This document shows, one piece after another, positions 62-17,538 of a stretch of DNA of 17,666 bases (positions are counted from its first letter, which is position 1; every line of letters starts with the position of its first letter). Origin of the DNA: Trichoplax adhaerens (lineage: Eukaryota; Animalia; Placozoa); contig NW_002060991.1 in the NCBI RefSeq assembly GCF_000150275.1, positions 23,589 to 41,254 on the forward strand, given 5' to 3'. Position numbers and translations under genes: made by a program. The notes under the pieces are model-generated. The model did not search any database. It was not told the origin of the DNA and saw only the letters and a program-made list of their open reading frames with translations.

Positions 62-285
62 AGATAGAGAAGACTGGACCACGCGAAAATAATAATATAA
101 AAAAAATCATTTAAAGAAAAAAAAGAGCCGTCGGCTTAAAAATTTTTTATATATTTCTTTGGCATATATGCTTACGCGCGCGAGAAGAAATGTAAAAAAA
201 ACTCCTGAGCCGACTATTTATTTTTTAATTCTCTTAGTTAGTTATTATATACGCGATTCGCGATTGGTCCAGGTCTCCTCTATCT
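62..285. repeat. Long imperfect terminal inverted repeat / fold-back hairpin
   Basis: AGATAGAGGAGACTGGACCA (62-81) pairs with TGGTCCAGGTCTCCTCTATCT (265-285, one extra G). GTCGGCT (130-136) pairs with AGCCGAC (208-214). TTTTTTATATATTTCTT (~143-159) pairs with AAGAAATGTAAAAAAA (~185-200). The tip holds palindromes GCATATATGC (162-171) and CGCGCGCG (175-182). Confidence 0.85.
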
Positions 286-304
286 CTAATAAATCTAAAT
301 AATC

Positions 305-1716
305 TGTGAAGTTTATAGTCTATGTGGAACATACATTATAAATTATGTGGAACATTTGCAATCGAATACTCAATAATATAAGACTGATTATCCGGTTTAT
401 CTTAGAAGACTCGATTTTCCCGTATATCCATGTTCCACATAGATTATGAACTTTAATCTAATCTGATTATCCGGTTTATCTAAGCCGTTTTCGACTGTTT
501 ATATGAGGGGTAATATTTGAGATTGTGTGAACAGATATTGTGAAGTTTATAATCTATGTGGAACATAGATTATAAACTATGTGGAACATACATTATAAAC
601 TATGTGGAACAAACATTATAAACTATGTGGAACATACATTATAAACTATGTGGAACATTGCTAAAATTGACGGTGAATAGGGAATTGATCAAAATTAAGA
701 AGGCAAAGTGGAACATAAATAATTATGAAACTATGTGGAACATTTAGAGTTATAAACTATGTGGAACATTCAGAATCATAAACTGTGTGGAACACGCAAG
801 ATAGGAGATTCGGATGGATGTGGAATGTTTATGTGTAATTTCAAAGTTTATAATCTATGTGGAACATACATTATAAATTATGTGGAACATTTAGAAATGG
901 AACACTTGATAGGGTTTTGATCAAAAATAAGCAGGTAAATTTTTTGGTTAAGCTAGTACGATATTGCCTAATCTGTTAGATAGGTCGTTTGTACAAACCA
1001 AGTAGGCAAATTTTATGTGAATATTGTGCGATATTCCCTAATATTAGAGCTAGGAGTAAAAACTATGTGGAACATAAATAATTATGAAACTATGTGGAAC
1101 ATTTAGAGTTATAAACTATGTGGAACATTTAGAATCATCAACTGTGTGTAACACGCAAGATACGAGATTCGGATGGATGTGGAATGTTTATGTGTAATTT
1201 CAAAGTTTATAATCTATGTGGAACATACATTATAAATTATGTGGAATATTTAGAAATGGAAGACTTGATAGGGATTTGCTCGGAATTAAGGTAGGTAAAT
1301 TTTGGGTGAATATTGTGCGATAATCCCTAATCTAAGTGGGGAGATAGGATTTGATGAAAATTAAAATAGGCAAATTTTGGGTGAATATTGTACGATAATC
1401 CCTAATCTAGAATTTAAAACTATGTGGAACATGTAGCATAGATTTGGATAGAAAGATTCAAAACTATGTGGAACATATCACCACCGTAAAGTATGTGGAA
1501 CATAGGATCGGATAGATTAAAGCTATGTGTGAAGATAGAGAATTGATAAAAGTGTTAATAGGCAAAATATTGTGTCATATTCCCTAATCAGGATTCAAAA
1601 CTATGTGGGATATTCAAAACTATGTGGAACATTTAAAACTATGTGGAACATTCTAAAATATGTGGAACATTCAAAACTATGTGGAACATGCAACTGTCAT
1701 AAACTATGTGGAACAT
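305..1716 (+). repeat. Subterminal array of (CTA)TGTGGAACA repeats
   Basis: About 24 exact forward TGTGGAACA copies by manual count, plus variants and one inverted copy (TGTTCCACATAG, 432-443). Five copies are in 23-bp tandem register (TATGTGGAACA at 555, 578, 601, 624, 647); another tight cluster lies at ~1600-1716. Confidence 0.95.
708..1278 (+). repeat. ~210-bp direct duplication (708-919 / 1067-1278)
   Basis: Near-identical blocks offset by 359 bp, from GTGGAACATAAATAATTATGAAAC to ACTTGATAGGG(T/A)TTTG, with a few substitutions. Confidence 0.9.
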
Positions 1717-2010
1717 TGTATAATTTAACATGGTCAAGTATTAGTAATACTTTATATTATGCACAGCGTATATATAACAATACACTACGCGAAGCATTGC
1801 AAGCGAGTAAACATACTGTAGGTAGACTATAAATTCAGATCAGATTGTGCATGCCTGCTTCAACGTTCTAACAGCGAATAACAGATGATATGCAACATCA
1901 AGCAACTGTTTATAACTCCTTCATTTCTATTCACAATCAACCGATGGGCTACAGAGTGGTGGTTTGTGGGATGGTCAAAGAAATTGAGAGTCTTAGTTCG
2001 AATCCTAATA

Positions 2011-2191
2011 ACGTACAGAGAAATGAACTTGTCCAGACGTGCGGACAAGTTTAAGGATAATTAAGTTAAAAACTATCATTTAAATCTCTTTGCCTCGTAC
2101 AGAGACACGTACAGAGAAATGAACTTGTCCAGACATGCGGACAAGTTTAAGGATAATTAAGTTAAAACTATTATTTGAATTTCTTGGCCTC
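2011..2191. repeat. ~86-bp direct duplication, each copy with a 9-bp stem hairpin
   Basis: ACGTACAGAGAAATGAACTTGTCC...GCCTC at 2011-2096 and 2107-2191. Each copy contains AACTTGTCC-N8-GGACAAGTT. The second copy overlaps the last codons of the 282-aa ORF. Confidence 0.9.
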
Positions 2192-3019
2192 TTTAGGATG
2201 ATTTCTGAAATATCTGAGTACTGTTTTTACGTTCTTAGTAAACCATTGAAAAGGCAAATTGCACTGTGTAACCTTGGGATATTTCTCGAAGCTGTCATAA
2301 AAGTTGATGTACTCGTGTGCACGACTCTTCTTCACATGGCAATTGGAATTTATCCACTCGTTGAAGTTTCCTGAACCGTACCTCTTTTCGAGAGCGAATA
2401 CAGCTTTGGCCTCATACAAATAACGGCCGTAACGGAAGGCGATGTATAAAATGAACCTATCATTTGTTTGCATCCTTTGTTCACATTCATCTATTTTCGT
2501 TTTGCAATCATCTAATGTTTTCGGTTGCACACTTAGATCAGACAGAGTCCTGATTAAACCATGAGTTGCTGGTTGCCACTTCTCATGTAACTCCTTAATA
2601 ATTTCTGATTCCTGACTTCCACTGCTAGTTCTTTTTCGTTTAGTCTTTTCAATAGGCACATTAAGAAATGATATTCTGGGTATTTTAGGGATATCATCTG
2701 TGTTTATCTCCGGGAAAGCAGTTTCTAGCTTTCTCATAACTTCACTATCATTATTCATCAAGGAAACATACACATTATTGTTGTGTTTAAGACATCTTAC
2801 ATACAGATCTATCCAATACTTCGCGTATCCATGTATTGCTTCATTTACGATTTTTACCATATGGTGTGTGTCGTCAGTGCCTAAATAGTTCATATTTTGA
2901 AAAACAAAAAAGCTTTCTTTAATTCTGTCATAGTCTATTGATTGAACAGAATCCATCTCCATTTGTTCGTCATCATTCTCTTTTTTAAAAAGTACTTGAA
3001 GTGCTGTTTCATCATCCAT
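2171..3019 (-). CDS. Hypothetical protein, 282 aa; C-terminal helical domain resembling DUF3102-type DNA-binding domains
   Basis: Long ATG ORF. NLS-like KTKRKR. The pattern G-x2-L-x-EAK...F-x2-W...SRA-x2-Y is reminiscent of DUF3102 (recognised by eye only). Confidence 0.6.
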   Translation of the reverse strand: MDDETALQVLFKKENDDEQMEMDSVQSIDYDRIKESFFVFQNMNYLGTDDTHHMVKIVNEAIHGYAKYWIDLYVRCLKHNNNVYVSLMNNDSEVMRKLETAFPEINTDDIPKIPRISFLNVPIEKTKRKRTSSGSQESEIIKELHEKWQPATHGLIRTLSDLSVQPKTLDDCKTKIDECEQRMQTNDRFILYIAFRYGRYLYEAKAVFALEKRYGSGNFNEWINSNCHVKKSRAHEYINFYDSFEKYPKVTQCNLPFQWFTKNVKTVLRYFRNHPKEAKKFK

Positions 3020-3178
3020 ATTAAAAGTAACTGCAGAGTGTGAACTTTAAAACAAATTATTAAAATTTGATCTAGTTTATGAAAGTTAAAAATGATCAAA
3101 ATTGTTTGCTGATATCTACAGCATGAGCTAAGTAAATATGCAAGTCTTCAATGGAATGTGTTCGATTGTTAAATCAAA

Positions 3179-4288
3179 TTAAACATTATTCAAATCTTCG
3201 ATAGGAATCCATGAATTAAAATTATTAGAATAGCCCTTCCATTTAACTAATGCTAATCTCTTCTTTTTATCTTTCCTGATTACCCTTTCAATGCGATATT
3301 TATCTTGTTTAGTTTTCTGCAATTCAGGCTCATAAAATGATCCTTCAATAGGTTCATCATTGAGATCTTTCAACTTATATGTAATAGGATCGGTTTGCTG
3401 GATTGATTCTATAACAAAAATTTCCTCTGTCCAATTGGGCGTGTAACCCTTGTCAAACACTTTTCTTTTATACTTTGAAATTCGCACTCTGTCACCAACT
3501 TTAAATTTCGTTTTTTTACTTAAAGATTCAATGTTTCCATACAAATTGTGCCATGTTTGAATCTCATTTACTATCTTACTACCTTCCACTGGAGTCATTT
3601 TGATACTACTGTGTTCCGAATTATTATACTGTTCAATGAGTTTCTGTAAAATATCAATGTATTTGTTAGTATTTTTGGCGCTAAAATGTTTCCACATTCG
3701 TTCCTTCAACGTTCTGTTAAATCTCTCAATAACAACTGCTTTTCCTTCATTATACGTACTGTAGCGCTCAATATTACAATCGTTCAACATCTTGTCAACA
3801 ACTCTATTATAAAACTCGGATCCTTGATCAACCCATAACTTAATTGGCTTTCTATGACTAGATTTAATGATCTTATCAAATGCTTCAGCTATACTATTAC
3901 CTGTTTTATCTTTTACAAGTACACTCCAAGCATATTTACTAAAAATGTCAATTACGTTAAGTAAATATTTGTAACCACTATTGTATTTTGCAAATTCCTG
4001 CATATCAACAAGATCAGCTGACCAAATGTCATCAATTCCATTCACTCTTACACGACGCTTAGGAAAGTTCCTTCTGATTGGTTTATGCAGTTCATTAGCT
4101 AATTGAGTAGACCAATCGACATCTTTATTACCAAAGCCTGTAATACTTTTATCAAATCTGGCCTTGATAGCACCACACGAAATACACTTACTCTTTACAA
4201 TTATTCTATTATTTTCGGTTTCCACATGTAATATACTATCAGGAATAGAATCAGTATATTTTCTTTCTCGAATGCAATATGACAGCAT
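3179..4288 (-). CDS. Retroviral-like (rve) DDE integrase with C-terminal chromodomain (Polinton c-integrase)
   Basis: WSADLVDM, LWVDQGSEF and VIERFNRTLK give D,D(33)E. Also FKVGDRVRI...KGYTPNW and a chromodomain YRIERVI...LVKWKGY...NSWIP. The first ATG is at 4288 (the track starts at an upstream TTG, 4321). Confidence 0.96.
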   Translation of the reverse strand: MLSYCIRERKYTDSIPDSILHVETENNRIIVKSKCISCGAIKARFDKSITGFGNKDVDWSTQLANELHKPIRRNFPKRRVRVNGIDDIWSADLVDMQEFAKYNSGYKYLLNVIDIFSKYAWSVLVKDKTGNSIAEAFDKIIKSSHRKPIKLWVDQGSEFYNRVVDKMLNDCNIERYSTYNEGKAVVIERFNRTLKERMWKHFSAKNTNKYIDILQKLIEQYNNSEHSSIKMTPVEGSKIVNEIQTWHNLYGNIESLSKKTKFKVGDRVRISKYKRKVFDKGYTPNWTEEIFVIESIQQTDPITYKLKDLNDEPIEGSFYEPELQKTKQDKYRIERVIRKDKKKRLALVKWKGYSNNFNSWIPIEDLNNV

Positions 4289-4301
4289 CGCGTATACTAT
4301 A

Positions 4302-4769
4302 TTATTTAATAAAATTAGCAAACTGTTTTATCAACCGCTCATTAAAAGTTGTCGGTTTTTGTTCATAGTCTAGTAAAATATCAAGAGGTTTATTATTGTA
4401 ATAACGTTTTATTAAATAGTAACAACAATAATATCCACACATAACTGAATTGATGTTTTGTATTTGTGATCGATTATACACTATCCCTTTCTTAGCTGTT
4501 TTTAAATATGATAGTATTTCACTTGGAGGATATAATCCAAATGAATCAAAATACTCAACATCATTGCTGTGTAGGTCACAATAATAACAAACCCAATGTG
4601 TTCCTGGTCCCGCAAAATAATCCTGCATGTTAACTACTCCACACTCACTTTTCAACATAGCCTTGGGTAGCATGTCTTTTGAAGAAACACCCCGAAAGTT
4701 TTTTATCTTATATTTCTTCATGATGTGATCAATTTCGATATTACTTAATGGTTTTATCGTTGTATCCAT
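4302..4769 (-). CDS. Adenain/Ulp1-like cysteine protease (virion maturation protease)
   Basis: GTHW (H58), YFDSFG (D75) and QIQ...MCGYYC (Q104, C111): catalytic order His-Asp-Gln-Cys, typical size. Confidence 0.95.
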   Translation of the reverse strand: MDTTIKPLSNIEIDHIMKKYKIKNFRGVSSKDMLPKAMLKSECGVVNMQDYFAGPGTHWVCYYCDLHSNDVEYFDSFGLYPPSEILSYLKTAKKGIVYNRSQIQNINSVMCGYYCCYYLIKRYYNNKPLDILLDYEQKPTTFNERLIKQFANFIK

Positions 4770-5617
4770 CTTCCTACGTATGGAGGAGTCTGTAAATGTC
4801 CCGGAACATGCATCCCTTTTGGAATATATATTGATTTGCCTTTTTTTATAGATTTTTTTTTTTTTAACCCTTTACCTTTTTTGGGGATTGTTCCAGGTAA
4901 TGTTACACCTCTCCCAGCTATTCCACTAATAACAGCAGGTAAAATACCAGCTAATAAAGCACCAATAAATCCACCATTTTTGGCTACTTGAGTTTTAGAC
5001 AATTTGATATCACAACCAGTGTTCTTCAATTTAGCTTTATTAATTTTATTAATTTGTCGACGTGTTAGATATAATTTATCAGGTCCAGTTAAATCAGAGC
5101 GAGATAAACGAATTGTGCATCCTTTCTTAGCATTTATTGCCGATTTTAATTTCTGCTTCTGTGATGGTGAAATATTTACTCCATATTCTGAATAAGGCAT
5201 CTTATATATATTACTACTAGATAAAAAACCTCTTCCACCAGTTGCTTTATGAGTAGCTCCAGAAATAGCACCTGTAGCTGCGGCCATTGCTAACTTTGGT
5301 ACCACACTTTTTATTACTTTAGGAGCTGCTTTAGCTATAGCAGGAACAGCTGCACGAATTAGACCCATTAAAGCACCTAAGAAACCTGCTTGTTTTGATA
5401 CTTGATTTCGGCTTAATTTTAGTATAACACTCTTATTATTTTTTCTAGCTTTAATAACTTTATTATGTTGCGTTAAAGTCAATCCTAAATTATCGTTACC
5501 TTGTAACTGATGTGATAATAGTCTTATAGTTATTGCTTTATTATGTTGATAGGCTTTAGAAATAGCATTTTTCTGAGAATTTGTTAAAGTGAATCCAGTG
5601 TTTATATAGGAATTCAT
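4754..5617 (-). CDS. Basic core-like protein (adenovirus pVII/pX-like precursor) with duplicated domain
   Basis: Very Lys-rich. Two similar ~80-aa units, each followed by [AG]GF[LI]GAL and a Gly/Ala hydrophobic segment ending in GRG. Lies between the protease and MCP genes. Confidence 0.7.
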   Translation of the reverse strand: MNSYINTGFTLTNSQKNAISKAYQHNKAITIRLLSHQLQGNDNLGLTLTQHNKVIKARKNNKSVILKLSRNQVSKQAGFLGALMGLIRAAVPAIAKAAPKVIKSVVPKLAMAAATGAISGATHKATGGRGFLSSSNIYKMPYSEYGVNISPSQKQKLKSAINAKKGCTIRLSRSDLTGPDKLYLTRRQINKINKAKLKNTGCDIKLSKTQVAKNGGFIGALLAGILPAVISGIAGRGVTLPGTIPKKGKGLKKKKSIKKGKSIYIPKGMHVPGHLQTPPYVGRWIQR

Positions 5618-5629
5618 TATAATATAGGT

Positions 5630-7039
5630 TTATACAATAACATTCATTCTTCCTCCTAATCCATGTAGTTGCAAATATCTATCAGTCAAGACAACTGCAT
5701 AAACATAATATGGTACATCATTACTGTTATTATTGATACTTTTAAAATTTTTCCCTAATGTCCATTTTACTTCAATATCTGCTGGACTATTTTTTAATCG
5801 TTCATTATGCTTAGATACATCGAAATGGAATATAGGATACAAATTTGCCCAATCTTCAGCAGATAACTGTGAACCAGTATCTGTATCTTGATATTTATGG
5901 ACTGCCTCCATAAACATCATATAAGGTCGACTATAATTTCTATTCGACGGATGAAAGTTACATTCTATCTCTCTTTCAGTGTATTGAATCGAGTTTATTC
6001 TAGCTGAAATACGTCTTACATCTGCATTATCAAATATCATGTTATTCATCGTTTGATTATTTTCTCGTTCAGTAGATTGAAATACAATGAAAATATGACG
6101 TGGTAATTCTGTTCCAGGCTGTGTAGTAATTCTCCAGGTAGGAGATGTTTGATTAGCTGCATATTGTGTCATATAAACTTTAACTTGCTCAAAGTAAAGA
6201 TTACTAATGTGTCCACTAACAAGTTTGGCCTCTAACTGGCTAGCTACTTCTAATGATGGAGTTACTTTAGGCATCCACATTGAAACATGTGATATTTTAA
6301 ATTTTCCGTCATCAATATTACTATCTTTTAAAATGTAGTTAGCTGTGGCAGCCCTATCGAGTTGTAAAGTATGTTTAACACCTCTAAATACTGTATCGAC
6401 ATCTTTACAGAATCCAAATATAGAACTTAGAGGTATTAAAAGTGATATTTGTTTATCACCTGTTGTTAATAGTTGTCTTGCATGAAATCCTCTGTTATAT
6501 TGAGGATTTGTGACTAATTTCATATCTCGAATTTGTTTAGCTTTTACAGTAACAACATCACTAGCTATGCTCACTGGGAATGACTCTGTCATATCAAATT
6601 CTGTCATATTTGGTTTACCTGTAGCTGTATCACGGTACCACAACATATTAGTTGCAATACTTCTACTGTAATCATCACTATACATGACTAAGTTTAAAAT
6701 TGTAGATGCATATGGGAGCCAATCGTTGATTTCTTCAACCGTATGATTATTAATTTGATATTGAGCACTTCTAAAAAGTGATAAGCCGTTATTCACTAAT
6801 GTTACAGCATCATCTGCATTATACAATGATCCACTATCTTTCGTTAAGTTTCCTCGTATTTCTATTACTGCTTTATGAGGCAATAGATAGACATCTTCAT
6901 CTCTAGTTTCAATCAAATAACTTCCTTTATCCATATCAGTATCTCGTGGCAGATACTCTATATATTCAAATTCTACAATTGAATTGTCTGCATGATTAGG
7001 CTCATCTATTCTTAGATATTGACTCACTAATTCTGACAT
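5630..7039 (-). CDS. Major capsid protein (double jelly-roll)
   Basis: 469 aa, beta-rich. Motifs seen in Polinton MCPs: NNGLSLF, IPLSSIFGFC, PRHIFIVFQ, YPIFHFDVS. Position within the morphogenetic cluster. Confidence 0.88.
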   Translation of the reverse strand: MSELVSQYLRIDEPNHADNSIVEFEYIEYLPRDTDMDKGSYLIETRDEDVYLLPHKAVIEIRGNLTKDSGSLYNADDAVTLVNNGLSLFRSAQYQINNHTVEEINDWLPYASTILNLVMYSDDYSRSIATNMLWYRDTATGKPNMTEFDMTESFPVSIASDVVTVKAKQIRDMKLVTNPQYNRGFHARQLLTTGDKQISLLIPLSSIFGFCKDVDTVFRGVKHTLQLDRAATANYILKDSNIDDGKFKISHVSMWMPKVTPSLEVASQLEAKLVSGHISNLYFEQVKVYMTQYAANQTSPTWRITTQPGTELPRHIFIVFQSTERENNQTMNNMIFDNADVRRISARINSIQYTEREIECNFHPSNRNYSRPYMMFMEAVHKYQDTDTGSQLSAEDWANLYPIFHFDVSKHNERLKNSPADIEVKWTLGKNFKSINNNSNDVPYYVYAVVLTDRYLQLHGLGGRMNVIV

Positions 7040-7063
7040 TAATATATATTATGGTTATATAAT

Positions 7064-7579
7064 TTAAATTATACGTTCAAATCCCTTACCAGTCTTAACA
7101 CCCGAACCAGATAAAATATTTGATAGTATAGCTCGAGATTTATCATTCAAAACTTTTCTAACTTGTGGATTGGTCGATAAATTAGTGACGTTATCTTTGA
7201 TTCGATTTCGGAAAGTCTGCATTAAATTTTTAGTAGTTTTCTTATCAGCCTTTTCAATTTGCTTGATGACCGCTTTATCTTCATTTATAATATTTTTTAC
7301 TACCTGATCACCTAATTTCTTCGCTTGCGAAGTTATTGTTTGTTTACTAGCTTGGATTGCCTTATCGCCTAGCTTCTTCGCTTGCGACGTGATTGTCTGT
7401 TTACCAGCTTGGATTGCCTTATTACCTAGTGGTTTTAAAGCCTTTTTAATAGGTGTTATCTTATTCTTAACAATTTTGCTACCTATCGAAATAACTTTCT
7501 TAGCGCGATCAAATAGATTACCCAATAAATTACCACCAATAATTTTTTTCTTGAAATATTGTTCTCTTTGTAATAACAT
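7064..7579 (-). CDS. Basic virion protein, probable membrane-lytic (pVI-like) precursor
   Basis: IIGG followed by an amphipathic helix NLLGNLFDRAKKVISIGSKIV, an internal 19-aa repeat, and C-terminal LSGSG. ATG at 7579 (the track uses the TTG at 7582). Confidence 0.6.
   Translation of the reverse strand: MLLQREQYFKKKIIGGNLLGNLFDRAKKVISIGSKIVKNKITPIKKALKPLGNKAIQAGKQTITSQAKKLGDKAIQASKQTITSQAKKLGDQVVKNIINEDKAVIKQIEKADKKTTKNLMQTFRNRIKDNVTNLSTNPQVRKVLNDKSRAILSNILSGSGVKTGKGFERII
7308..7429 (-). repeat. 57-bp intragenic tandem repeat (2+ copies; LG[ND]KAIQA[GS]KQTITSQAKK)
   Basis: CCTA register at 7311, 7368 and 7425; differences are mostly synonymous. Confidence 0.9.
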
Positions 7580-7647
7580 CAATATATATATATATTATTT
7601 TATTTTACCCACAAGAAGTATTAATTGTTTATATCAGGTCCTAATAT

Positions 7648-7959
7648 TCAATCTACTACAATATGTACGTATCTCGATGTAAAATTTCTATACTCTTTTT
7701 TCTTTAAGAAATCAACATAAAAGGCTTTATCATCACTCATATATATATATCCTGATGGCGTCCTCTTTTTTTTTAGAACTTCCATTAGAAAGGTATCTCC
7801 ATTGTGACGCTTAAGTAGAACTATATCCTTATTACTCTTTCGTATTAATTTATTCTTGAGAAATTGAATAACAGTCTGAATCATACTTCTTAAGCGGTCA
7901 ATAAAGTAATGCAGTGGATTGCCAGTGTTTTTTTTATCAGATTTTTTTCCTCGCATCAT
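7648..7959 (-). CDS. Hypothetical basic protein, 103 aa
   Basis: ATG ORF filling the gap in the co-directional structural cluster, preceded by a (TA)n tract like its neighbours. Confidence 0.65.
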   Translation of the reverse strand: MMRGKKSDKKNTGNPLHYFIDRLRSMIQTVIQFLKNKLIRKSNKDIVLLKRHNGDTFLMEVLKKKRTPSGYIYMSDDKAFYVDFLKKKEYRNFTSRYVHIVVD

Positions 7960-7984
7960 ATATATATATATATGTTATATTAAT

Positions 7985-8746: not shown

Positions 8747-8758
8747 TATATTATAATG

Positions 8759-9889
8759 TTATATAAAACTATTATGAATCTTTTCATACTGTTCTTTAGT
8801 AATTATGTTATCATTATACAATATATCAATTATATTTATGGCCTCATTATTTAATTGTTGATTACTATTTCCTGCTTCCTTCGCTCCTAAAATTACCTCT
8901 AGTCGATTACATAACTGATCTGGATTACTATAGTGCTTATATTGTATTTTTTCAGTATTCGACGATTTATTGTCACGGCCAATCTTGGTTTTCATGCTTC
9001 TACTGTTCATAGGTACACCAGATAATTCCACAAGCTTAGTAAATAATTTTTGAGCCTTATCGCTATATGTCTTTTTAGGATTGTACCTCTTCGTTAATAA
9101 ATCATAAAATGTATTATCAAATTTCCTGCTAAGCACTTTTCGTCCATTGTGATCATAAGCTTCTAGTTTCATTTGTATCAGTTTATTTGGATCTATATAT
9201 AAATCACCAAAATACGAATTATTAGCTAATGAATAAGGATCTCTCATAGTATGTTTTACATTTTTTTTTATAGATATTCCGTACCCTGATTGTGATCCTT
9301 CTTCTCGTATTGGATCTAACTGTTGCAAATTCTTTTCACGAACTACTGCTAAATATTTACTTAGAGTTAGTTGTTCTTGTTTTACTATTTGGTATTTAAC
9401 AGAGTTATTTTTTCTAGATGCATGAGTAGCTTGTGCTGTTAAACTGTTAATTTTTCTTCTAATAGATTTTATATCTTGAGGTTTGCTTAATGTGGGATCA
9501 AAACCATTTTTTTTTATAGTCTCGATTTCTTGAGGGTTAAATCTTCCTTGAAGGCCATCTTGGGAATGACTGTCCAACCATTGTTGCACTGAACTGTCTT
9601 CAGACTGTCGTTGTGATATGGTACTACTAAGTGATTCAATATTACTAGATAATGCTTCTTGATTTTTTTGTAACTGCTCAAGAAGTTTATCCTGTCGATT
9701 ATCTTCTTTTTTTTGAACTTCTTCAATTTTCTTTACAACAGGTTTTTGTAATTTTGTAGTAGATTCTTGGAATGATTGCTCGTTTAATTTTTGGTTTAGT
9801 TGTTGCTGTTTTAATATTGATCTATTCTTAAGAAAAGTATTAATTACTCTCTTTCTATCTTCCACTGTCTCTATCGTGTCAAAAGGCAT
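8759..9889 (-). CDS. Polinton conserved protein (coiled-coil N-terminus), function unknown
   Basis: Gln/Lys-rich coiled coil, central QSGYG, and C-terminal Y-x-NP-x2-L-x2-RL...GAKEAGN, a motif I recognise from Polinton ORFs near the ATPase. Confidence 0.7.
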   Translation of the reverse strand: MPFDTIETVEDRKRVINTFLKNRSILKQQQLNQKLNEQSFQESTTKLQKPVVKKIEEVQKKEDNRQDKLLEQLQKNQEALSSNIESLSSTISQRQSEDSSVQQWLDSHSQDGLQGRFNPQEIETIKKNGFDPTLSKPQDIKSIRRKINSLTAQATHASRKNNSVKYQIVKQEQLTLSKYLAVVREKNLQQLDPIREEGSQSGYGISIKKNVKHTMRDPYSLANNSYFGDLYIDPNKLIQMKLEAYDHNGRKVLSRKFDNTFYDLLTKRYNPKKTYSDKAQKLFTKLVELSGVPMNSRSMKTKIGRDNKSSNTEKIQYKHYSNPDQLCNRLEVILGAKEAGNSNQQLNNEAINIIDILYNDNIITKEQYEKIHNSFI

Positions 9890-10075
9890 ATGTATATAGT
9901 ATATATATTAAAGTTAGATAAAATTACATATAATGTAAAAATATACTAAATATTTTATTCAAACTATATATAAGATTGTAATTTTGCAGTAAGTTACAGT
10001 AAAAATTTCGTAAGATAATGTAAAAAATATATCGTATTCATTTTACACTCTAGCATTTATCTTATAAGATATATA

Positions 10076-10750
10076 TTATGGTACATAGAAACCATCGAAT
10101 CCCTTACGATAAATTTCTGGAATATACTTTGTGTTTTTATCAATAACCATAAATGTGTATGGTTGTTCTGTTGCTTCTATGTAGATATTTTTAAACTCAC
10201 TTTTACTAATACCTTTGGCATGATCTTCTGTAATATTTCTAATATCTCTATTATCTAATCCACCAAACAGAATAAAGCATTTAGTATTTCTTCTAATATA
10301 TTTAGGAACATCATAGTAACTTTGGGTCAAGTAGATACAATTACAATTTTTGTTTCTACTTAAACTAAAATATTCCTTAATTTTGTTCATGTTTTTAGAA
10401 TCAATTTTTATATCATCGAAAACAATTACTTTCTGCATCTCTGAATCTAGCTCCTCTACTGGTATTACCTCTTCAGGATTCTCAATGCTCAATGTATAAT
10501 GTTCATCATCTAATTCACTATTTAACATATCATAGAATGACTGCAATAATTCATACTTTTCCTGATCTGGATTAATAGTGTATACAACACAATCATCATA
10601 GTTTAACCATTGCATCAACATATTCAGTAATAAATTTGTTTTACCTTGACCAGTACTTCCAACTATCAAATAGTGACAATCAGGTAATAGAAAGTGATGT
10701 TTATATATTACTCCAACTCCTTTTTTGTCGTCAAAATTGATTATATCCAT
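10076..10750 (-). CDS. Genome packaging ATPase (A32/FtsK-HerA superfamily)
   Basis: Walker A GSTGQGKT, Walker B VIVFDD, SRNKNCNCIYLTQSY and IRRN motifs; 224 aa. Confidence 0.95.
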   Translation of the reverse strand: MDIINFDDKKGVGVIYKHHFLLPDCHYLIVGSTGQGKTNLLLNMLMQWLNYDDCVVYTINPDQEKYELLQSFYDMLNSELDDEHYTLSIENPEEVIPVEELDSEMQKVIVFDDIKIDSKNMNKIKEYFSLSRNKNCNCIYLTQSYYDVPKYIRRNTKCFILFGGLDNRDIRNITEDHAKGISKSEFKNIYIEATEQPYTFMVIDKNTKYIPEIYRKGFDGFYVP

Positions 10751-10779
10751 ATTTTATATAATATATATGTATATTATAA
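10751..10779. promoter_or_regulatory. Putative 29-bp bidirectional TA-rich promoter
   Basis: Almost pure A/T spacer between the divergent ATGs of the ATPase (10750, -) and fibre-like (10780, +) genes. Confidence 0.45.
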
Positions 10780-11883
10780 ATGAGTTATACAATCTTTGGT
10801 ACTTTACATAATCAGCATAATGAGGTTATAAAAGTTCGTGGACTCAAAGGTAATGGATATAAAATTAATGATGATGGTGATTACGATTTAGAAAGCAAAA
10901 GATTGACGAATTTATCATCAAATGTAGTGGATGACTCAGATGCGACAAATAAACAATACGTTGACAGTAGAATTGATACAAAAGTTTCTAAATCAGGGGA
11001 TGTATTATATGGAAATTTGGATATGAATAAGAACTGTATCAAAAATTTACATGACATAGATCCGAATGATGACGGTGCAATTGCAATAAATAAAAGATAT
11101 CTAGAAACTTATTATCTTGATAAAAGGTCTTTTATGATGAATAAATATTTTTCTGGAATACCAGTTGAAGATTTGTCGTTATTTTTTTTACCTAATATTA
11201 ACTTATGCGAAGTTTACAAAAAAGATAAATGTATGAGTTTACTAGATCCTATCAATCAAATTAAATTAGTTCAAAATGTTAAATTAAAACAACCTTCTTA
11301 CTTAATTGATCAAGAACATATACCTTATATCGCATTTGACGGAAAAAATAATTCCATGGCAGGTGAATTAAAATATGAAACTATGAATCATCATGGGGCT
11401 ACTACGTTCTTCTTAGTTGTTGCTACTAAGGGATTAAAAAATCAAACTCAATTTAGCTGGAGCGTTAAGAATCGAAACGGTGGTTATAATATCAACAAGA
11501 GATTAGGAGTTCATTTGCCATGGTCTGATGGTACTACATATATAGATCATGGGTCAGTTAATAATTACAGAATGCAATATAAAGATAGTACATTAACAGA
11601 TGAGATGATTAATAAAATAGTTCTTTGGAGCTATAGATGCACTGGTAAAAGAGCATCGTTATGGTTAAATCAAAATCATCTATATTCTGAAGATGAAAAA
11701 CATATTTCATCTGATCTGTTTGATACAGGAATATTTACCCTAGGGAATGGTTATCATGTCTCAGAACATTGTAGTATGGATTTCTATGGTCTGTTATTCT
11801 ATAACAGAGCTTTGACTGATGAGGAAATGAATAAAATGCAAATATATTTGAGAACATTTTTCAAATTTAATTATGTGGATTAA
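10780..11883 (+). CDS. Putative fibre/receptor-binding protein with C-terminal ConA/LamG-like head
   Basis: Two fibre-shaft-like units (LTNL...DATNKQYVD; GNLDMN..IKNL...AINKRYLE). The beta-rich C-terminus has IAFDG, LWLN and YNRALTDEEM, typical of LamG-3-like domains. Confidence 0.65.
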   Translation: MSYTIFGTLHNQHNEVIKVRGLKGNGYKINDDGDYDLESKRLTNLSSNVVDDSDATNKQYVDSRIDTKVSKSGDVLYGNLDMNKNCIKNLHDIDPNDDGAIAINKRYLETYYLDKRSFMMNKYFSGIPVEDLSLFFLPNINLCEVYKKDKCMSLLDPINQIKLVQNVKLKQPSYLIDQEHIPYIAFDGKNNSMAGELKYETMNHHGATTFFLVVATKGLKNQTQFSWSVKNRNGGYNINKRLGVHLPWSDGTTYIDHGSVNNYRMQYKDSTLTDEMINKIVLWSYRCTGKRASLWLNQNHLYSEDEKHISSDLFDTGIFTLGNGYHVSEHCSMDFYGLLFYNRALTDEEMNKMQIYLRTFFKFNYVD

Positions 11884-11898
11884 TATTATAGACGCATA

Positions 11899-12396
11899 AT
11901 GGAAAACAAAGTGGATAACATATTTAACTTCAATAGTATATCTGATCAATTATCATCTGAAGAAATAGATTTCTTGAAAAAATTGTATGCTTACTATCAT
12001 AAGAAAACATGGTGTTATAAACGTGCATATAAATACCTTAAACATAAGGACTTATTTTTGAGTGTCTCTGCTATTTTCTTAACAGCATTAGGTGGAGCTG
12101 TATCAGCAGCAACAATAAATTTTATTCCCTTACCAACTATATCACTGGTAGGTATCGTCTTACATGGGTATAATAAAAAGAAAAATTATAAAAAAAGAAT
12201 AGAGCTATGTAAATTTGCTTATACAAGCTATCAAAAAGTTTTGATTGATTTACGAAGTTATTTAAGGGGAGATCAATATGATTCTGATCAGGTAATTCAT
12301 CATCTTAATTGGATAGATAAGGAAATAACAGATTTATGTCCTCCTATAGATGATTACTATAACAAACGCTATGATAAATATCATATTATTAATTAA
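11899..12396 (+). CDS. Small two-TM membrane protein (SLATT-like topology)
   Basis: Hydrophobic hairpin LFLSVSAIFLTALGGAVSAATINFIPLPTISLVGIVL flanked by basic helices. Confidence 0.65.
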   Translation: MENKVDNIFNFNSISDQLSSEEIDFLKKLYAYYHKKTWCYKRAYKYLKHKDLFLSVSAIFLTALGGAVSAATINFIPLPTISLVGIVLHGYNKKKNYKKRIELCKFAYTSYQKVLIDLRSYLRGDQYDSDQVIHHLNWIDKEITDLCPPIDDYYNKRYDKYHIIN

Positions 12397-12418
12397 TAGA
12401 ATCTTTCTATTGATTAAT
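12388..12418. terminator. 14-bp stem hairpin between convergent genes
   Basis: ATTAATTAATAGAA-TCT-TTCTATTGATTAAT (one T:G pair), overlapping the stop of the 165-aa ORF. The terminator role is inferred. Confidence 0.5.
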
Positions 12419-12461
12419 CATCTATGAAATGATTGAAAATTGTATGGCATAACATATATGT

Positions 12462-13067
12462 TTATGTCGATGGTAGAAATTCCCATCTATTCACCTCACA
12501 TACTGCTTTCCATATATTTTCATAATGGTTTAGTGTCGCCTTAGACTTTGGAAGTTTACATTGTGAAGCTATGTCAGCCCTATGCAATATAATAAGTAGT
12601 TTATGAAAGATATACATTGTATTAATATATCTCTTTCTATTCATCCCTTTTAATATTTCCGATAGCGATATATTAGCTTCTTCGAAGTATCTTAGAAACT
12701 CTCCTAGCTGAAAATCTTTTAATTGAAGTTGATTTAGCTTATTCATTATATGATATTTTCGATGATAAATACTACGTTTTTTCTTTACATACGTATGGTT
12801 ATATTCAGGTACAAAGATGTAACCGTAATGACATCCACATTTGATACATAAATATTCAGTCCCAGTTTGTTCTATAATAGTATCACATTTTCACAAGTCC
12901 ATGGTGTATTCTTAACATCAAAACGAGGACATTCACATCCATAATCAAATATTTCACCACATTTCAAGCAGAAATCATCAAGAGTAAATTTTTTTCTATC
13001 TTTCCTCGACGACTATTTAAAAGAATTAAGATCTGACTTTTAAAAAGTCAGATAATGGAAAATCCAT
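12462..13067 (-). pseudogene. VLTF3-like (poxvirus A2-type late transcription factor) gene, frameshifted
   Basis: C-terminus LPKSKATL...IWKAVC...WEFLPS is VLTF3-like. The frame stays open upstream of 12746 to 12890 (KCDTIIEQTGTEYLCIKCGCHYGY...RSIYHRKYHI). The adjacent frame continues with CLKCGE..CEC...WTC. Candidate start is the TA-preceded ATG at 13067. Confidence 0.7.
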
Positions 13068-13182
13068 TACATATAATGATTTACATACGATGTCGACGTA
13101 TCTGTCGTCATCAGATGAATCAATATCGTCATTCGAATTACTATCGTCTGGGATATCAGAATCATGATTAGATAAATCGTTA

Positions 13183-13503
13183 TTAATTTTCGGATGTAAA
13201 TTTTCTGCTTCTTTTTTTTTGGCTCTCTTTGAAACAACTATCTGGTATTTCATCAACATAATCGAATTTGTATTTCTTACCATCAACTTTAGATTTACCA
13301 GATTTACAGCGGTTAGTCTTATCACAAGACATTTTAATAATGCCACAATTAATACCTAACTTTTTTTGACAGTTATATATGGAATGATAATATGATACCT
13401 CATCTGTATCAATACAAGTTGCTTTTATCTTCTTCACATTCTCGTGATTTTTTGAAACAAATGAATAATCCCGGTTTTTTACTGACTTTGTACAATGTTT
13501 CAT
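13183..13503 (-). CDS. NUMOD1-like DNA-binding protein (no nuclease domain)
   Basis: KKIKAT..DTDEVSYYHSIY..QKKLGIN.GII...C...YKFDY matches the NUMOD1 pattern of HNH homing endonucleases. Probable start is the ATG at 13503 after TATATATAAAA (the track extends to 13542). Confidence 0.6.
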   Translation of the reverse strand: MKHCTKSVKNRDYSFVSKNHENVKKIKATCIDTDEVSYYHSIYNCQKKLGINCGIIKMSCDKTNRCKSGKSKVDGKKYKFDYVDEIPDSCFKESQKKRSRKFTSEN

Positions 13504-13653
13504 TTTTATATATATAGTGTTCATAAAATATTCTTTAAGCATTAGCTATGATACATTGAAATACATAATGATACACAATGTTTTTCAGTAAATTTACAAA
13601 GAAATTGCTTAAAGAAATGCTTAAAGAAATTTTTATATATATAATATATAGAA

Positions 13654-16600
13654 ATGCAAAAGAAGGAATTGAAAAAATTATCGAAAAAAGAGTTAACAAA
13701 CATTGTATCGAGTAGATCACATAACACCAAATCCACTAAACGTACTAAACCTATTAAATTAAAAGAAGGTTATGAGATTAATCCTACGACTGGTAGACAA
13801 ATTAAAATCAATGGTCCAACATATAGAAAGATCCATAATAAATCAAAAGAAGGTTATGTGATTAATCCTAAGACAGGTAGGCAAATTAAAATCAATGGTT
13901 CAACGTATAGGAAGATCCATAATAAATCAAAAGAAGGTTATGAGATTAATCCTAAGACAGGCAGATTTATTAAAATTGATGGTCTGGTTCATAGACGGAT
14001 GAGAAAAGAAATGCAACAAGAAATAAAAATGAAGGAGCCAGAAATATATTCTATGACCGTTTTGTTATTTAGACGAGTAGATGAATCTAGTAAGATGAAA
14101 AAAATTGCCTTCACAAGTAAGGATGGATATCGTTATATTTTGATTGCGAAACGTATTCTTAACATATCAATGAAAAAATGTATCGATCTCTATCTTAACA
14201 AACGAATTTACAGGAAAGAGGATGGTAAATATAACGAACAGTTCACTGAACTTATTGATCAATTGATATCTTCAATAGATTTTGAAGAATTATGGGATAA
14301 ATGTGGTCATTATACCGATTGTATTATAATAAAATCTGCTTCGAAATGTCCTAATCTGGGTGAAAATGTTGACGTATTAGAGGAGGAATTACATCTTACA
14401 AATACAGAAATGGGTGTTTATGATAAATATCTTAACTTTGATCTAAATCAAGAAGTTCTATCAGATACACGAGCTAATAGCTGTTTTGTGAATTTGATTG
14501 TTAGCAAATTTGAGGCTGCATTTGGTAAAGTTAGGAAAGATGGAACAAAGTATTATAGATTTAATCTGACTCATGAAAGCCTATGTGAGATTTGTGGTAT
14601 CAATTATCAAGAAGATAATATAGGCTTGTCTGTAAATAAATCACTTGCATTCTTTAAGAAATTTAGGATCGGATTATGTGTGTATGGGCCATTTGGACGA
14701 CTATTAAAGTACAGTCCAGAACATCCAAATAAAAAAATAAATCCGAGAAATTTGTACATCTATATTCACAACAAACATTGCTATGAAATCAATAATAATA
14801 TCAAAAAATTCGAACAGGTTGTTTGGCGACCAAATGATGATGTCTCATCTGAATTAAAATCTTTGAAGGTTTCAAATGAATACTATATCAGAGATACGAA
14901 TATCCACACAAATAGAGCACTATTTATTGATGACTGTGAACAGATGATAAGATATCTAGATGATAAAGATAATGATGAAATAAAACTTGTAACATTTGTA
15001 TATAACGAAGATACACTAGATACTTTCTTGTTTGAGATTATTGAGAAAATGAATTATACACCTGAGATTAATTTCAATTATGGTAAAATAATGACACTAA
15101 AATTAAAATATAACAAAATAATAGCAGTAATAACGGCTCCTGATATTAAACAAAATGATGTTGATATGGAAATTGACGAAAAAAGTTACGAAACATTTCA
15201 TAAAGTGGATGATGAATTTTACAAAGGTTTATTACAAAAAAATCATTTGTCGTGCTATAATCAGACTATTATGGACCTTGAAAATGTGTTGAAAATATCA
15301 CCAATGGGCGGTTATTTTGATAATTGCATGGTATATAATGAGCTGTTAGGAATAGATAGTAGAAAGGCTTATACTAGTGATTTTATGAACATTGAATTTT
15401 ATCCTGTCTTTAACCATTTCGATGTGTGGCAGAGTTACGATGGACATGCAGTTGAAGACTATACACAGTATATCGTTGAAACTAAACGTTGCCATCCTAT
15501 TCTGTTTAATGCAAAATTTTCTAGATGTTACGGGATAAAGTTAAATAAAATAAGATTTAATGATGTAGAAATTCTTTACTATAGAAGACCTTCGAATTTA
15601 GTCAAAAGTAATAGCGAGCACCTTGTGAAGGCTGTCTATGAATCTGACCTGCCTCTTGATTGTAAGAAATTCATCGTTAACAAAAATTTAGGGCTAATAG
15701 AAAAGAAGAGAAATGTAAAAACAATTACAAAGGTCTTTAAAAATTACGATGAGGCATTCTATTATCAAAACTCGTTAGATAATGGCCAGATTTATACGAT
15801 TACGGGAAACAGCATAAATACAGAATTGGAAGAGTTAGAAGAAGAAGAGAAGAATAAATTGTATTTGCTATGTATATCTGAAGAAAGAACTTTAATTAAT
15901 GGATTTTTACCAATTAAAGAACTTGTATATGATATCAGATCTATTAAAAATTATATGACGTATAAAAAATTAATTCGTGCTAATATTGAAGTTCGTGGCA
16001 TTAAGACTGATAGTCTGCTAATTGACAATAGTAGGGATAATAAATCCAAAGTGAAAAAGCTCTTTGATTTCAGCAATAAAATTGGCTGTTTTAAACTCGA
16101 GACATGTAATTATTTAATAGATAAGAAATTACAATGGATCGAAAATGAATTACCGCAAATTGCACAAATAACTATCACAGAGCATGAGATTAAAGATGAA
16201 AGAGACACGGATGAGATTAATAATGTGTTTAAAAAATATAACACATTTATTAAAGGATCATTACCTGGTGTTGGTAAAACAACTTGTGCCAAAATGAATC
16301 CGTATATAAAAACTCTTTTTGTTAGTCCTTATAATAAACTGTGCCAGGAGTTACGAAAAAGTAGTCACGATGCGGTAACTCTAAATATGTTACTTGGAAT
16401 TGGAATCGATGATAAACACATAAAAATGAAAAACTTTAACATTGAGCCATATGATTGTATCGTTTTTGATGAGATTTTATTATATAATCCCTATCAACTG
16501 TATTTAATTAAAATGTTCATGAAAAAGAATGCTGAAAAAAGATATTTATGTACTGGTGATGTTGATCAAAGAAAGCCATTTACTTTCGGTACAAACAATA

Positions 16601-17538
16601 TCAAAGATCAAAATAATTATCAGTTGTGGTGCTTAAATCAAATGTTCCCACATCAACTGACGTTAAGCGAAAATAAACGTTTGAATAAGAGCTCTGATAA
16701 GAGAAAGCTAATTGTGCTTAAGAGGGATATTTTTGATCTTAATAAGGACGTTATTTCTACTTTTAAACGCCATGGAATCAAAGTTGTTAAGACCATGAAA
16801 GAAGTAACAACGATAAAAAATATTTGTTTGTTTAATTTTAGGTGTGACCAGGTTAATAAACACGTCGCTAAGAATGTAGTCGAAAGAGCTGGATTTTATA
16901 GCGGTTTAGAACTTGTTTGTAAAAAGCACTATAAGAATAAAAATGATCGGCTGTATGTTAACTATCATTATGTTTTAAAATCGATTGGAGATAAGTATTT
17001 TGTCGTGAACGAGCCAGTTGAGAACAAAGATATTCGACTGGACGTTGATAAATTGAAATATTTCAAACTTCCGTATGCTAATACATGCGATTCAGTACAA
17101 CGTCTCACAATAAAGGACAAAATTACCATATTTGATTGCAATACGCCCTATGTGGATCGCTACTTTATTTGGACTGCATTAACACGAGGCACAAATTTAA
17201 AAAATGTTCAGATATATGAACATTCACCGGAAGAAATTATGTCTTTAAACGAATCTTGGGTAAAACTTTACTTTAAGAATAAGATAGAGGATTACAGATC
17301 ACAAGATAGGGCAGCGGGTAGAAAAAATGATAAGGATTACATAGATATTGATTGGATTCAGTTACAACTCGAAAAGTGCACGTCATGTCTTCTATGTAAT
17401 ACATTATTTGAAGCTATGATTAATCCGGATAATAACATTAATTCTAACATTACAGTTGATAGAATTGATAATAAACTACCACATGTTAAGAGTAATTGTA
17501 GGTTAATGTGCCTTGATTGCAATGTGAGAAAGCGTTAG
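13654..17538 (+). CDS. Multidomain replicase: repeats + OTU-like + divergent family-B DNA polymerase + SF1 helicase + HNH-like nuclease
   Basis: PolB-like motifs A (GID568SRKAYTS), B (K672FIVN676KNLG) and C (GIKTD786S). SF1 motifs GSLPGVGK875T, FD939EI, GDVDQ, ENKR, YANTCDSVQRLT, WTALTR. C-terminal CLLC...TVDRIDN..PH..SNC..MCLDCN. Confidence 0.85.
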   Translation: MQKKELKKLSKKELTNIVSSRSHNTKSTKRTKPIKLKEGYEINPTTGRQIKINGPTYRKIHNKSKEGYVINPKTGRQIKINGSTYRKIHNKSKEGYEINPKTGRFIKIDGLVHRRMRKEMQQEIKMKEPEIYSMTVLLFRRVDESSKMKKIAFTSKDGYRYILIAKRILNISMKKCIDLYLNKRIYRKEDGKYNEQFTELIDQLISSIDFEELWDKCGHYTDCIIIKSASKCPNLGENVDVLEEELHLTNTEMGVYDKYLNFDLNQEVLSDTRANSCFVNLIVSKFEAAFGKVRKDGTKYYRFNLTHESLCEICGINYQEDNIGLSVNKSLAFFKKFRIGLCVYGPFGRLLKYSPEHPNKKINPRNLYIYIHNKHCYEINNNIKKFEQVVWRPNDDVSSELKSLKVSNEYYIRDTNIHTNRALFIDDCEQMIRYLDDKDNDEIKLVTFVYNEDTLDTFLFEIIEKMNYTPEINFNYGKIMTLKLKYNKIIAVITAPDIKQNDVDMEIDEKSYETFHKVDDEFYKGLLQKNHLSCYNQTIMDLENVLKISPMGGYFDNCMVYNELLGIDSRKAYTSDFMNIEFYPVFNHFDVWQSYDGHAVEDYTQYIVETKRCHPILFNAKFSRCYGIKLNKIRFNDVEILYYRRPSNLVKSNSEHLVKAVYESDLPLDCKKFIVNKNLGLIEKKRNVKTITKVFKNYDEAFYYQNSLDNGQIYTITGNSINTELEELEEEEKNKLYLLCISEERTLINGFLPIKELVYDIRSIKNYMTYKKLIRANIEVRGIKTDSLLIDNSRDNKSKVKKLFDFSNKIGCFKLETCNYLIDKKLQWIENELPQIAQITITEHEIKDERDTDEINNVFKKYNTFIKGSLPGVGKTTCAKMNPYIKTLFVSPYNKLCQELRKSSHDAVTLNMLLGIGIDDKHIKMKNFNIEPYDCIVFDEILLYNPYQLYLIKMFMKKNAEKRYLCTGDVDQRKPFTFGTNNIKDQNNYQLWCLNQMFPHQLTLSENKRLNKSSDKRKLIVLKRDIFDLNKDVISTFKRHGIKVVKTMKEVTTIKNICLFNFRCDQVNKHVAKNVVERAGFYSGLELVCKKHYKNKNDRLYVNYHYVLKSIGDKYFVVNEPVENKDIRLDVDKLKYFKLPYANTCDSVQRLTIKDKITIFDCNTPYVDRYFIWTALTRGTNLKNVQIYEHSPEEIMSLNESWVKLYFKNKIEDYRSQDRAAGRKNDKDYIDIDWIQLQLEKCTSCLLCNTLFEAMINPDNNINSNITVDRIDNKLPHVKSNCRLMCLDCNVRKR
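13762..13995 (+). repeat. Three 84-bp (28-aa) repeats KEGY.INP.TGR.IKI.G
   Basis: Units start at 13762, 13846 and 13930; the third diverges at its end. NPxTGRxIKxxGxTY resembles the core of the NCLDV 2-cysteine adaptor motif but lacks the cysteines. Confidence 0.9.

What the first reader, a model, noticed from the sequence alone, without database searches (positions are those of the whole stretch)
62..17538. Candidate system: an integrating Polinton-type virus with hairpin telomere and polymerase-helicase-nickase replicase
Seen: a fold-back end, an iteron-like array, and one ORF carrying PolB, SF1 helicase and HNH motifs next to a standard Polinton virion/integrase module. Established: canonical Polintons use protein-primed PolB, whereas hairpin-ended viruses (parvoviruses, poxviruses) self-prime and need a nicking or resolving nuclease. 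Inference: this lineage may replicate by self-priming/rolling-hairpin, with the HNH domain resolving the end. I believe PolB-SF1 fusions have been noted in some Polinton-like viruses, so the novelty would lie in the link to the terminal structure.
Basis: partly seen in the sequence, partly recalled or inferred. Interest (0 to 1): 0.88.

Follow-up and report, generated by a model that had tools for sequence, protein, structure and literature searches.

The report
Fold-back end on known Trichoplax virus
This is an integrated copy of an already published placozoan Polinton-type virus whose left end can fold back on itself, but its polymerase-helicase-nuclease protein is of a known type and likely still starts DNA synthesis from a protein primer, so the fold-back more likely helps rebuild or release the end than replaces the primer.

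Summary
The anatomy is real; the novelty is mostly in print. The window is a left-end-plus-body copy of the published Trichoplax MELD virus (capsid 100%, replicase 98% identical). Bases 62-285 form an imperfect palindrome flush with the insertion point (z -4.6), followed by 25 copies of a 12-mer. The 1294-aa replicase is a known 'Tlr1-like helicase' (pPolB palm + SF1 helicase + HNH described 2016; terminal-protein-position domain and OTU protease 2024). Against pure self-priming: the OTU Cys/His dyad and a Ser/Tyr at the position where terminal proteins carry their linking residue are kept in 53 of 53 aligned proteins. Hairpin priming for palindrome-ended virophages/PLVs with non-pPolB replicases was proposed in a July 2026 preprint. 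What I did not find in print: this 224-nt bulged fold-back, near-universal conservation of the PacI-type HNH residues, and an inner arm 2 nt longer than the integrated end. One unrelated complete element with the same replicase also has terminal hairpins; controls are too few. Flip/flop could not be resolved. Best model: protein priming, with fold-back and HNH acting in end regeneration or release (0.5); rolling hairpin 0.25.

The parts
1..61 (.). Host flank, likely a repeated host sequence; insertion point between 61 and 62
   Evidence: Uninterrupted form in 4 of 4 runs, contig depth 393-763 (depth is not copy number)
62..287 (.). Terminal imperfect palindrome: outer end starts 5'-AGATAGAG at 62 and pairs with 285; the inner arm runs 2 nt further (286-287)
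62..1670 (.). Left terminal inverted repeat (extent inferred from another copy)
   Evidence: One contig in 1 of 4 runs (X7) joins 1670 to 17532 on opposite strands; no partner repeat in the window
321..1716 (+). Subterminal array, 25 copies of a 12-mer (24 on +, 1 on -), in 19/23/26-nt tandem units and a 267-nt duplication
2011..2167 (.). Two 61-nt direct repeats, the first holding a 26-nt palindrome (2026-2051)
2171..3019 (-). 282-aa protein, weak DUF3102 match; weak homologs lie beside the replicase in two related loci
   Evidence: Pfam E 0.008; L020, L027
3179..4288 (-). RVE (retrovirus-like) integrase with C-terminal chromodomain, DDE residues present
   Evidence: rve E 1.6e-11, Chromo 2.8e-7; D92 near-invariant, D154 and E188 invariant in 14 sequences
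4302..4769 (-). Adenovirus-type maturation protease
   Evidence: Peptidase_C5 E 1.6e-4, above cut-off
4754..5617 (-). 287-aa basic protein, probably a core/DNA-binding virion protein (inferred from composition and position, untested)
   Evidence: no significant Pfam match
5630..7039 (-). [quoted passage not shown]
   Evidence: PF21738 E 9e-21; 100% identity to P0072
7985..8746 (-). Probable minor capsid protein (label inferred from homologs beside capsid genes in canonical Polintons)
   Evidence: blastp 22-37% to ORFs in 8 of 25 integrase-bearing loci
10076..10750 (-). A32-like genome-packaging ATPase
   Evidence: Pox_A32 E 1.3e-5, above cut-off
10780..11883 (+). 367-aa fibre-like protein (weak)
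   Evidence: Phage_T7_tail E 0.013, below cut-off
11899..12396 (+). SLATT-like membrane protein (weak)
   Evidence: E 0.097
12462..12746 (-). VLTF3-like late transcription factor (C-terminal part)
   Evidence: Pox_VLTF3 E 2.7e-7
13654..17538 (+). Tlr1-like replicase, 1294 aa: 2C_adapt repeats (aa ~33-115); terminal-protein-position alpha/beta domain (~130-232, candidate linking residue Tyr220); OTU protease (~255-385, Cys277/His375); exonuclease-position domain without conserved acidic residues (~405-530); pPolB palm (D568, K672/N676/G680, T785-D786); SF1B helicase (~845-1190); PacI-type HNH (~1245-1290). This copy has a substitution at a near-invariant helicase motif position (residue 1150)

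Best explanation
The window holds the left end and gene body of an endogenous copy of Trichoplax MELD virus, a group-2 Maverick/Polinton with a Tlr1-like replicase that likely initiates DNA synthesis from its own N-terminal terminal-protein domain, while the terminal fold-back likely serves as a local end structure that the HNH domain is predicted to nick during release or resolution. Shown: identity, gene set, palindrome, insertion point, domain order, conserved residues. Inferred steps: (1) Tyr220 (Ser or Tyr in all relatives) is charged with the first nucleotide at the 5'-AG end and the OTU protease cuts the primer domain off; (2) palm plus SF1B helicase copy by strand displacement, the 12-mer array being a loading or binding platform; (3) the displaced single strand folds its 3' end onto the inner arm, giving a duplex origin at once instead of waiting for a 17-kb panhandle; (4) the integrase trims 2 nt from the free end, which would also shed the 5'-linked protein and would explain why the integrated end is 2 nt shorter than the inner arm; (5) to leave the chromosome, the palindrome extrudes and is nicked by the HNH domain, and the inner arm or slide-back on AG repeats restores the lost dinucleotide.
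For: Capsid 100% and replicase 98% identical to the named virus. Cys277 and His375 invariant in 53 of 53 aligned proteins; the region folds as an OTU domain (best Z 6.7, rmsd 3.0, 100 aligned; 14 of the 16 rows with Z>=5 are OTU domains). The N-terminal model matches the N-termini of viral pPolBs over 280-300 columns (densovirus DNA polymerase E 2e-5; adintovirus and mavirus weaker). Published terminal proteins carry Ser/Tyr in the loop between the last helix and last strand with Gly/Pro nearby; here that loop reads G218-H219-Y220 (model) and has Ser, Thr or Tyr at 218-220 in 53 of 53 proteins, the top of 128 three-residue windows in aa 130-260 (next 49, median 19). Palm region aligns to phi29 polymerase (Z 14.0, rmsd 5.0, 340 aligned); motif C lacks its first Asp as in Tlr1-like helicases predicted to be active. 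HNH residues R1270 and N1281 53/53, H1277 52/53, H1277 aligning with the loop Tyr of PacI, i.e. conserved like a working domain. The end starts 5'-AG like Polintons (recalled), and the inner arm is 2 nt longer. Terminal protein and palindromic fold-back ends coexist in Streptomyces telomeres (abstract).
Against: All enzymatic steps are predictions. The strand order of the N-terminal domain (beta-beta-beta-alpha-alpha-beta by DSSP) is not obviously the PRD1-type topology, and published work finds this middle domain variable, with a bona fide PRD1-like fold only in TvV-S1. The 53 proteins are related, so 53/53 is not 53 independent events. OTU Z-scores are below 8. A flush 3' fold-back is a ready primer-template, which favours self-priming at least for the second strand. 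A preprint finds terminal palindromes preferentially with non-pPolB replicases. The 2-nt offset rests on this copy and one contig start in X7. The PacI match is weak by score (E 0.068). Among copy variants in reads, two (205, 215; 4 of 4 runs) pair with the opposite arm where the window does not, but others (196, 199 in 3 of 4 runs; 226) would break pairs unless compensated.
Confidence: 0.5

Rival explanations
1. Rolling-hairpin replication: the 3' end folds back and self-primes; the HNH domain nicks opposite to resolve the end, so the palindrome inverts (flip/flop); the terminal-protein domain is vestigial or used in one step only.
For: Palindrome flush with the end and bulged like poxvirus hairpins (comparison recalled); HNH conserved across the clade; an unrelated complete 17.5-kb element with the same replicase has a 42-nt hairpin 5 nt inside both ends (L013, z -3.86); same model proposed for palindrome-ended virophages/PLVs.
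Against: Candidate linking residue and OTU dyad kept in 53 of 53, also in L013; HNH, VSR or GIY-YIG nucleases are fused to Polinton polymerases with no reported hairpins, and transpoviron homologs lack the nuclease; a complete canonical-pPolB element also has a short stem near its ends (L080), and several other contig ends gave z below -3 on 70 nt.
Confidence: 0.25
2. The palindrome is a by-product (an old inverted duplication of the terminus by template switching) and the HNH domain is a passenger homing nuclease or acts on host or rival DNA; replication is plain protein priming with a long panhandle.
For: Arms diverge to 82 of 129 matching columns; published view is that these nucleases are homing/intein-type invaders; the same preprint offers accidental annealing as an alternative; L092, with the same replicase type and 123-nt terminal repeats, shows only short weak stems (-6.4 kcal/mol on 70 nt), though its ends may be clipped.
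Against: Pairing persists along the whole 224 nt and is tightest at the very end; contigs sharing the inner arm from 248 but with another upstream sequence occur in 3 of 4 runs, suggesting the arm is kept across variants; HNH residues are near-invariant at 25-52% overall identity.
Confidence: 0.2

Closest known systems
Trichoplax MELD virus (Starrett et al. 2021, PMC8502044; passages read)
   Same: Capsid identical, replicase 98% identical; same element family.
   Different: The paper calls the replicase S1H 'instead of a PolB'; 'hairpin' and 'HNH' have 0 hits in its main text. This copy has 22 residue differences, 14 of them from residue 1150 on.
Tlr1-like helicases of PLVs, Tlr1 and transpovirons (PMC5499653, passages; PMC11161782, sections 6, 7, 9)
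   Same: TP-position domain, active-site OTU, pPolB palm with KTD motif C, SF1 helicase, C-terminal HNH.
   Different: Those papers treat HNH as an invader and do not link it to end structure; here an alpha/beta domain remains at the exonuclease position (aligns to the phi29 N-terminus) but without conserved acidic residues.
Palindrome-ended virophages and PLVs of Halocafeteria seosinensis (bioRxiv 10.64898/2026.07.28.741278; passages and section 7 read, figures and supplements not seen)
   Same: Terminal palindromes next to the insertion site, RVE integrase, non-canonical replicase, hairpin-priming model.
   Different: 52-nt palindromes in a protist; replicases named in the text are D5 primase-helicase and PolA-S3H ('SF1' 0 hits). 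Here 224 nt, bulged, animal host, replicase that keeps a predicted protein primer.
Streptomyces telomeres (PMC4513846, abstract only)
   Same: Works like it in one respect: palindromic fold-back ends together with terminal-protein priming.
   Different: Bacterial, internal origin, separate Tpg/Tap proteins; no homology claimed.
Parvovirus rolling-hairpin ends and poxvirus telomeres (recalled)
   Same: Terminal imperfect palindrome.
   Different: No HUH Rep or separate resolvase found among 15 ORFs; closed ends and flip/flop not shown.

Membership tests
Maverick/Polinton group 2 (Polintoviricetes) | DJR major capsid, packaging ATPase, maturation protease | tested here: met
Maverick/Polinton group 2 (Polintoviricetes) | RVE integrase with DDE triad | tested here: met
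Maverick/Polinton group 2 (Polintoviricetes) | Terminal inverted repeats at both ends | tested here: inconclusive
   Right end not in the window; a ~1.6-kb inverted repeat is implied by one contig in 1 of 4 runs
Maverick/Polinton group 2 (Polintoviricetes) | 5-8 bp target-site duplication | not testable with these tools
   Right flank not held; no genome for this window
Canonical Polinton (strict sense) | Stand-alone pPolB with active exonuclease | tested here: not met
   Replicase is a palm-helicase fusion; no acidic residue conserved at >=80% in aa 405-530
Tlr1-like helicase | OTU protease with Cys/His dyad before the palm | tested here: met
   C277/H375 53 of 53; OTU fold Z 6.7
Tlr1-like helicase | pPolB-type palm, motifs A and B intact, motif C lacking first Asp | tested here: met
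   D568 53/53, K672 53/53, N676 52/53, D786 53/53, K784 47/53; phi29 Z 14.0
Tlr1-like helicase | SF1 helicase after the palm | tested here: met
   Pif1/RecD2/Dda Z 23-24, Foldseek E 2e-16
Tlr1-like helicase | C-terminal HNH or GIY-YIG nuclease | tested here: met
   PacI-type motif, E 0.068; Pfam HNH in 6 of 31 members, best 4.4e-5
Tlr1-like helicase | Alpha/beta domain at the terminal-protein position | tested here: met
   aa ~130-232, pLDDT mostly 85-95
PRD1-like terminal protein | 4-stranded sheet plus two helices of LF/PAD topology | tested here: inconclusive
   Strands and two helices present, order differs by DSSP; no direct superposition possible
PRD1-like terminal protein | Ser/Tyr in the loop between last helix and last strand | tested here: met
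   53 of 53; top of 128 windows
PRD1-like terminal protein | Covalent link to the 5' end | not testable with these tools
   needs bench work
Rolling-hairpin / hairpin-telomere replicon | Palindrome flush with the terminus | tested here: met
Rolling-hairpin / hairpin-telomere replicon | Flip and flop isoforms | tested here: inconclusive
   Only short-word contigs available and tables cut
Rolling-hairpin / hairpin-telomere replicon | Covalently closed or self-primed free ends | not testable with these tools
   needs free genomes
Rolling-hairpin / hairpin-telomere replicon | No protein primer | tested here: not met
   by prediction only:

The most novel reading that the evidence does not exclude
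Tlr1-like elements run a hybrid cycle not yet described: terminal-protein priming at the open end, hairpin self-priming of the displaced strand, and nicking of the fold-back by the fused PacI-type HNH to resolve ends and cut the provirus out; the 2-nt-longer inner arm records integrase trimming that sheds the terminal protein. That would answer how Polintons excise and how they remove the terminal protein before integration.
Probability: 0.22. Interest if true: 0.8.

Novelty: new variant of a known kind. Interest (0 to 1): 0.45.

Why it matters
How Polintons leave the chromosome and how they shed the terminal protein before integration are stated open questions. This element puts a long terminal fold-back, a predicted protein primer and a strongly conserved nuclease in one multi-copy family of a laboratory-kept animal (culturability recalled), so a simple count of end orientations in long reads would separate protein priming from rolling hairpin. 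The genome, the fusion protein and the hairpin-priming idea themselves are already in print.

Tried and rejected
No whole genome was held, so other copies and the right flank could not be read. Flip/flop: no opposite-strand joint was listed on 1-400 in 4 runs, but 24 loose ends and 100 pieces were not shown and contigs drop variants, so this is no evidence. Co-occurrence test: of 63 replicase loci (4 only HNH fragments), 3 more and 26 integrase loci, end repeats at both contig ends were seen in only L013 (= L060), L092 and L080 among the 7 and 8 records paired: underpowered. An ungapped stem scan missed even the window's fold-back and was replaced by self-BLAST (which also did not list it) and folding. 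Scans of viral contigs with the single replicase, the capsid, the capsid alignment and the terminal motif gave nothing; the repeat motif gave 2 loci, one glanced at and not followed. No LF/PAD chain appeared among the 50 rows of the fold search for the N-terminal model, which does not exclude the fold. Atlas search of aa 125-240 gave leads at 0.80 or less. Rfam: 0 matches. Earlier findings of this scan: none. Searches for a published hairpin end in this group: polinton+SF1 helicase+fused+hairpin 0 papers; searches turned up only the Halocafeteria preprint as relevant. Starrett's one held supplement had no 'Trichoplax' hit; its genome maps and the preprints' figures and supplements were not seen and may bear on novelty. 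Rejected: the idea that the fusion or its HNH is new.
Full report
Observation. The window carries 16 ORFs of 80 aa or more. Pfam assigns an RVE integrase with chromodomain, adenovirus-type protease, double jelly-roll capsid, A32 ATPase and VLTF3-like factor among the 15 scanned. Bases 62-285 form an imperfect palindrome (z -4.57, 0 of 200 shuffles), the strongest fold compared with 152 tiled windows; A62 pairs with T285 and the inner arm continues 2 nt (CT, 286-287) that the outer end lacks. Twenty-five copies of a 12-mer lie at 321-1716. No right-hand terminal repeat is in the window.

The end is real. Eighteen of 21 listed runs, from 6 studies, hold part of the stretch, 14 at half the words or more. 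In the 4 runs laid, a contig follows 1-61 and then leaves the window, as an unoccupied site would, and in X7 a contig starts exactly at the terminal AG. One X7 contig joins 1670 to 17532 on opposite strands, implying that some copies have a ~1.6-kb inverted repeat directly after the replicase (1 of 4 runs). The fold-back region is polymorphic among copies. These are short-word contigs, so orientation isoforms could not be told.

Identity. The replicase is 98% identical (1272/1294) and the capsid 100% identical to proteins named Trichoplax MELD virus, on a 17,508-base record; fragments are also annotated in Trichoplax genomes. Starrett et al. describe its replicase as an SF1 helicase 'instead of a PolB' (passages). 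This copy differs from 52 of 53 aligned proteins at a near-invariant helicase motif position (residue 1150), so it may be impaired.

Replicase. Of 71 homologs I aligned 52 near-full-length ones with the window protein, leaving out 19 (the near-identical record and short or partial hits). A model of aa 200-1294 (pLDDT 87) matches Pif1/RecD2/Dda helicases (Z 23-24) and phi29 polymerase (Z 14.0, 340 aligned). Polymerase motifs A, B and the second Asp of C are invariant or nearly so; the exonuclease-position domain has no conserved acidic residue. The C-terminal domain aligns with PacI (E 0.068) with His1277 at the place of PacI's loop Tyr and is near-invariant. A model of aa 116-399 shows an alpha/beta domain followed by an OTU fold with Cys277/His375 in 53 of 53. 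This is the published Tlr1-like helicase: palm, SF1 and HNH in Krupovic et al. 2016 (passages), TP-position domain and vOTU in Krupovic et al. 2024 (sections 6, 7, 9); polB-SF1 fusions in group-2 Mavericks are also noted in a 2026 preprint (passages).

Primer question. The 2024 paper places the linking Ser/Tyr of terminal proteins in the loop before the last strand. I looked there: G218-H219-Y220, with Ser at 218 or Tyr/Ser at 220 in 53 of 53 proteins, ranking first of 128 windows. With an intact protease to cut the domain off, protein priming is likely retained. The caveats are that the fold order is not clearly PRD1-like, the sequences are related, and nothing is measured.

Fold-backs in relatives. 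L013, a complete 17.5-kb element in which I saw no capsid gene, with the same replicase, has a 42-nt hairpin 5 nt inside both ends (z -3.86). L092 (same replicase type) has only short weak stems and possibly clipped ends; L080 (canonical pPolB) has a 10-bp stem near its ends; other contig ends also reached z below -3. Three complete elements cannot test co-occurrence. Nucleases fused to Polinton polymerases also occur in nematode and oomycete pPolB2 (passages).

Mechanism. I commit to protein-primed strand displacement, with the fold-back as a local duplex origin and release structure and the HNH domain as the predicted nicking enzyme (0.5); rolling hairpin 0.25; by-product with passenger nuclease 0.2. 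The 2-nt offset between inner arm and integrated end fits retroviral-type 3' trimming (established for RVE integrases, recalled) and would remove a 5'-linked protein; this is inference from one copy plus one contig start.

Verdict. Known virus, known replicase, partly published hypothesis; the long bulged terminal fold-back, the conserved candidate linking residue, the conserved HNH and the 2-nt offset were not found in the searches named under Tried and rejected. Other papers seen as passages only and not bearing on the verdict: PMC11296320, PMC7031253, PMC12721341, 10.64898/2026.10.13.758929. Interest 0.45.

Noticed in passing
window 61/62 (contigs): The unoccupied form of the flank has, 2 nt past the insertion point, 11 nt identical to the reverse complement of the element's first 11 nt (rough chance 1e-5 per 30 nt): possible sequence-guided target choice or an excision footprint.
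   Followed up: partly
window 248-290: Contigs in 3 of 4 runs share the inner arm from 248 on but have a different sequence before it, and the arm has several-fold higher contig depth than the loop: possibly sister families with the same arm and another loop.
   Followed up: no
window 291-376: A variant that skips or replaces these 86 bases occurs in 3 of 4 runs: two subtypes of terminal repeat.
   Followed up: no
window 17100-17666: Differences from the published replicase cluster after residue 1150, and the sequence after the stop is not the inverted repeat seen in another copy; the minus strand has a short basic reading frame ending near 17574. Possibly a recombinant right part.
   Followed up: partly
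window ~465-517: Many contigs with unrelated flanks on both sides match this short stretch: a motif dispersed elsewhere in the host genome.
   Followed up: no
L080 1-12 and 12310-12321: Complete canonical-pPolB Maverick whose contig ends stop on a 12-mer that reads like an outward-facing Polinton 5'-AGT start; could be a clipped terminal palindrome, which would weaken any link between fold-backs and the fusion replicase.
   Followed up: partly
L013 1-17505: Complete linear element with no capsid gene seen, carrying a Tlr1-like replicase plus a 1476-aa protein with a herpes origin-binding helicase domain (Pfam E 3e-19) and terminal hairpins: transpoviron-like, with two replication proteins.
   Followed up: partly
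L030, L034, L036, L048 and others, just downstream of the replicase: The integrase gene directly follows the replicase in many distant relatives, whereas here the two sit at opposite ends.
   Followed up: no
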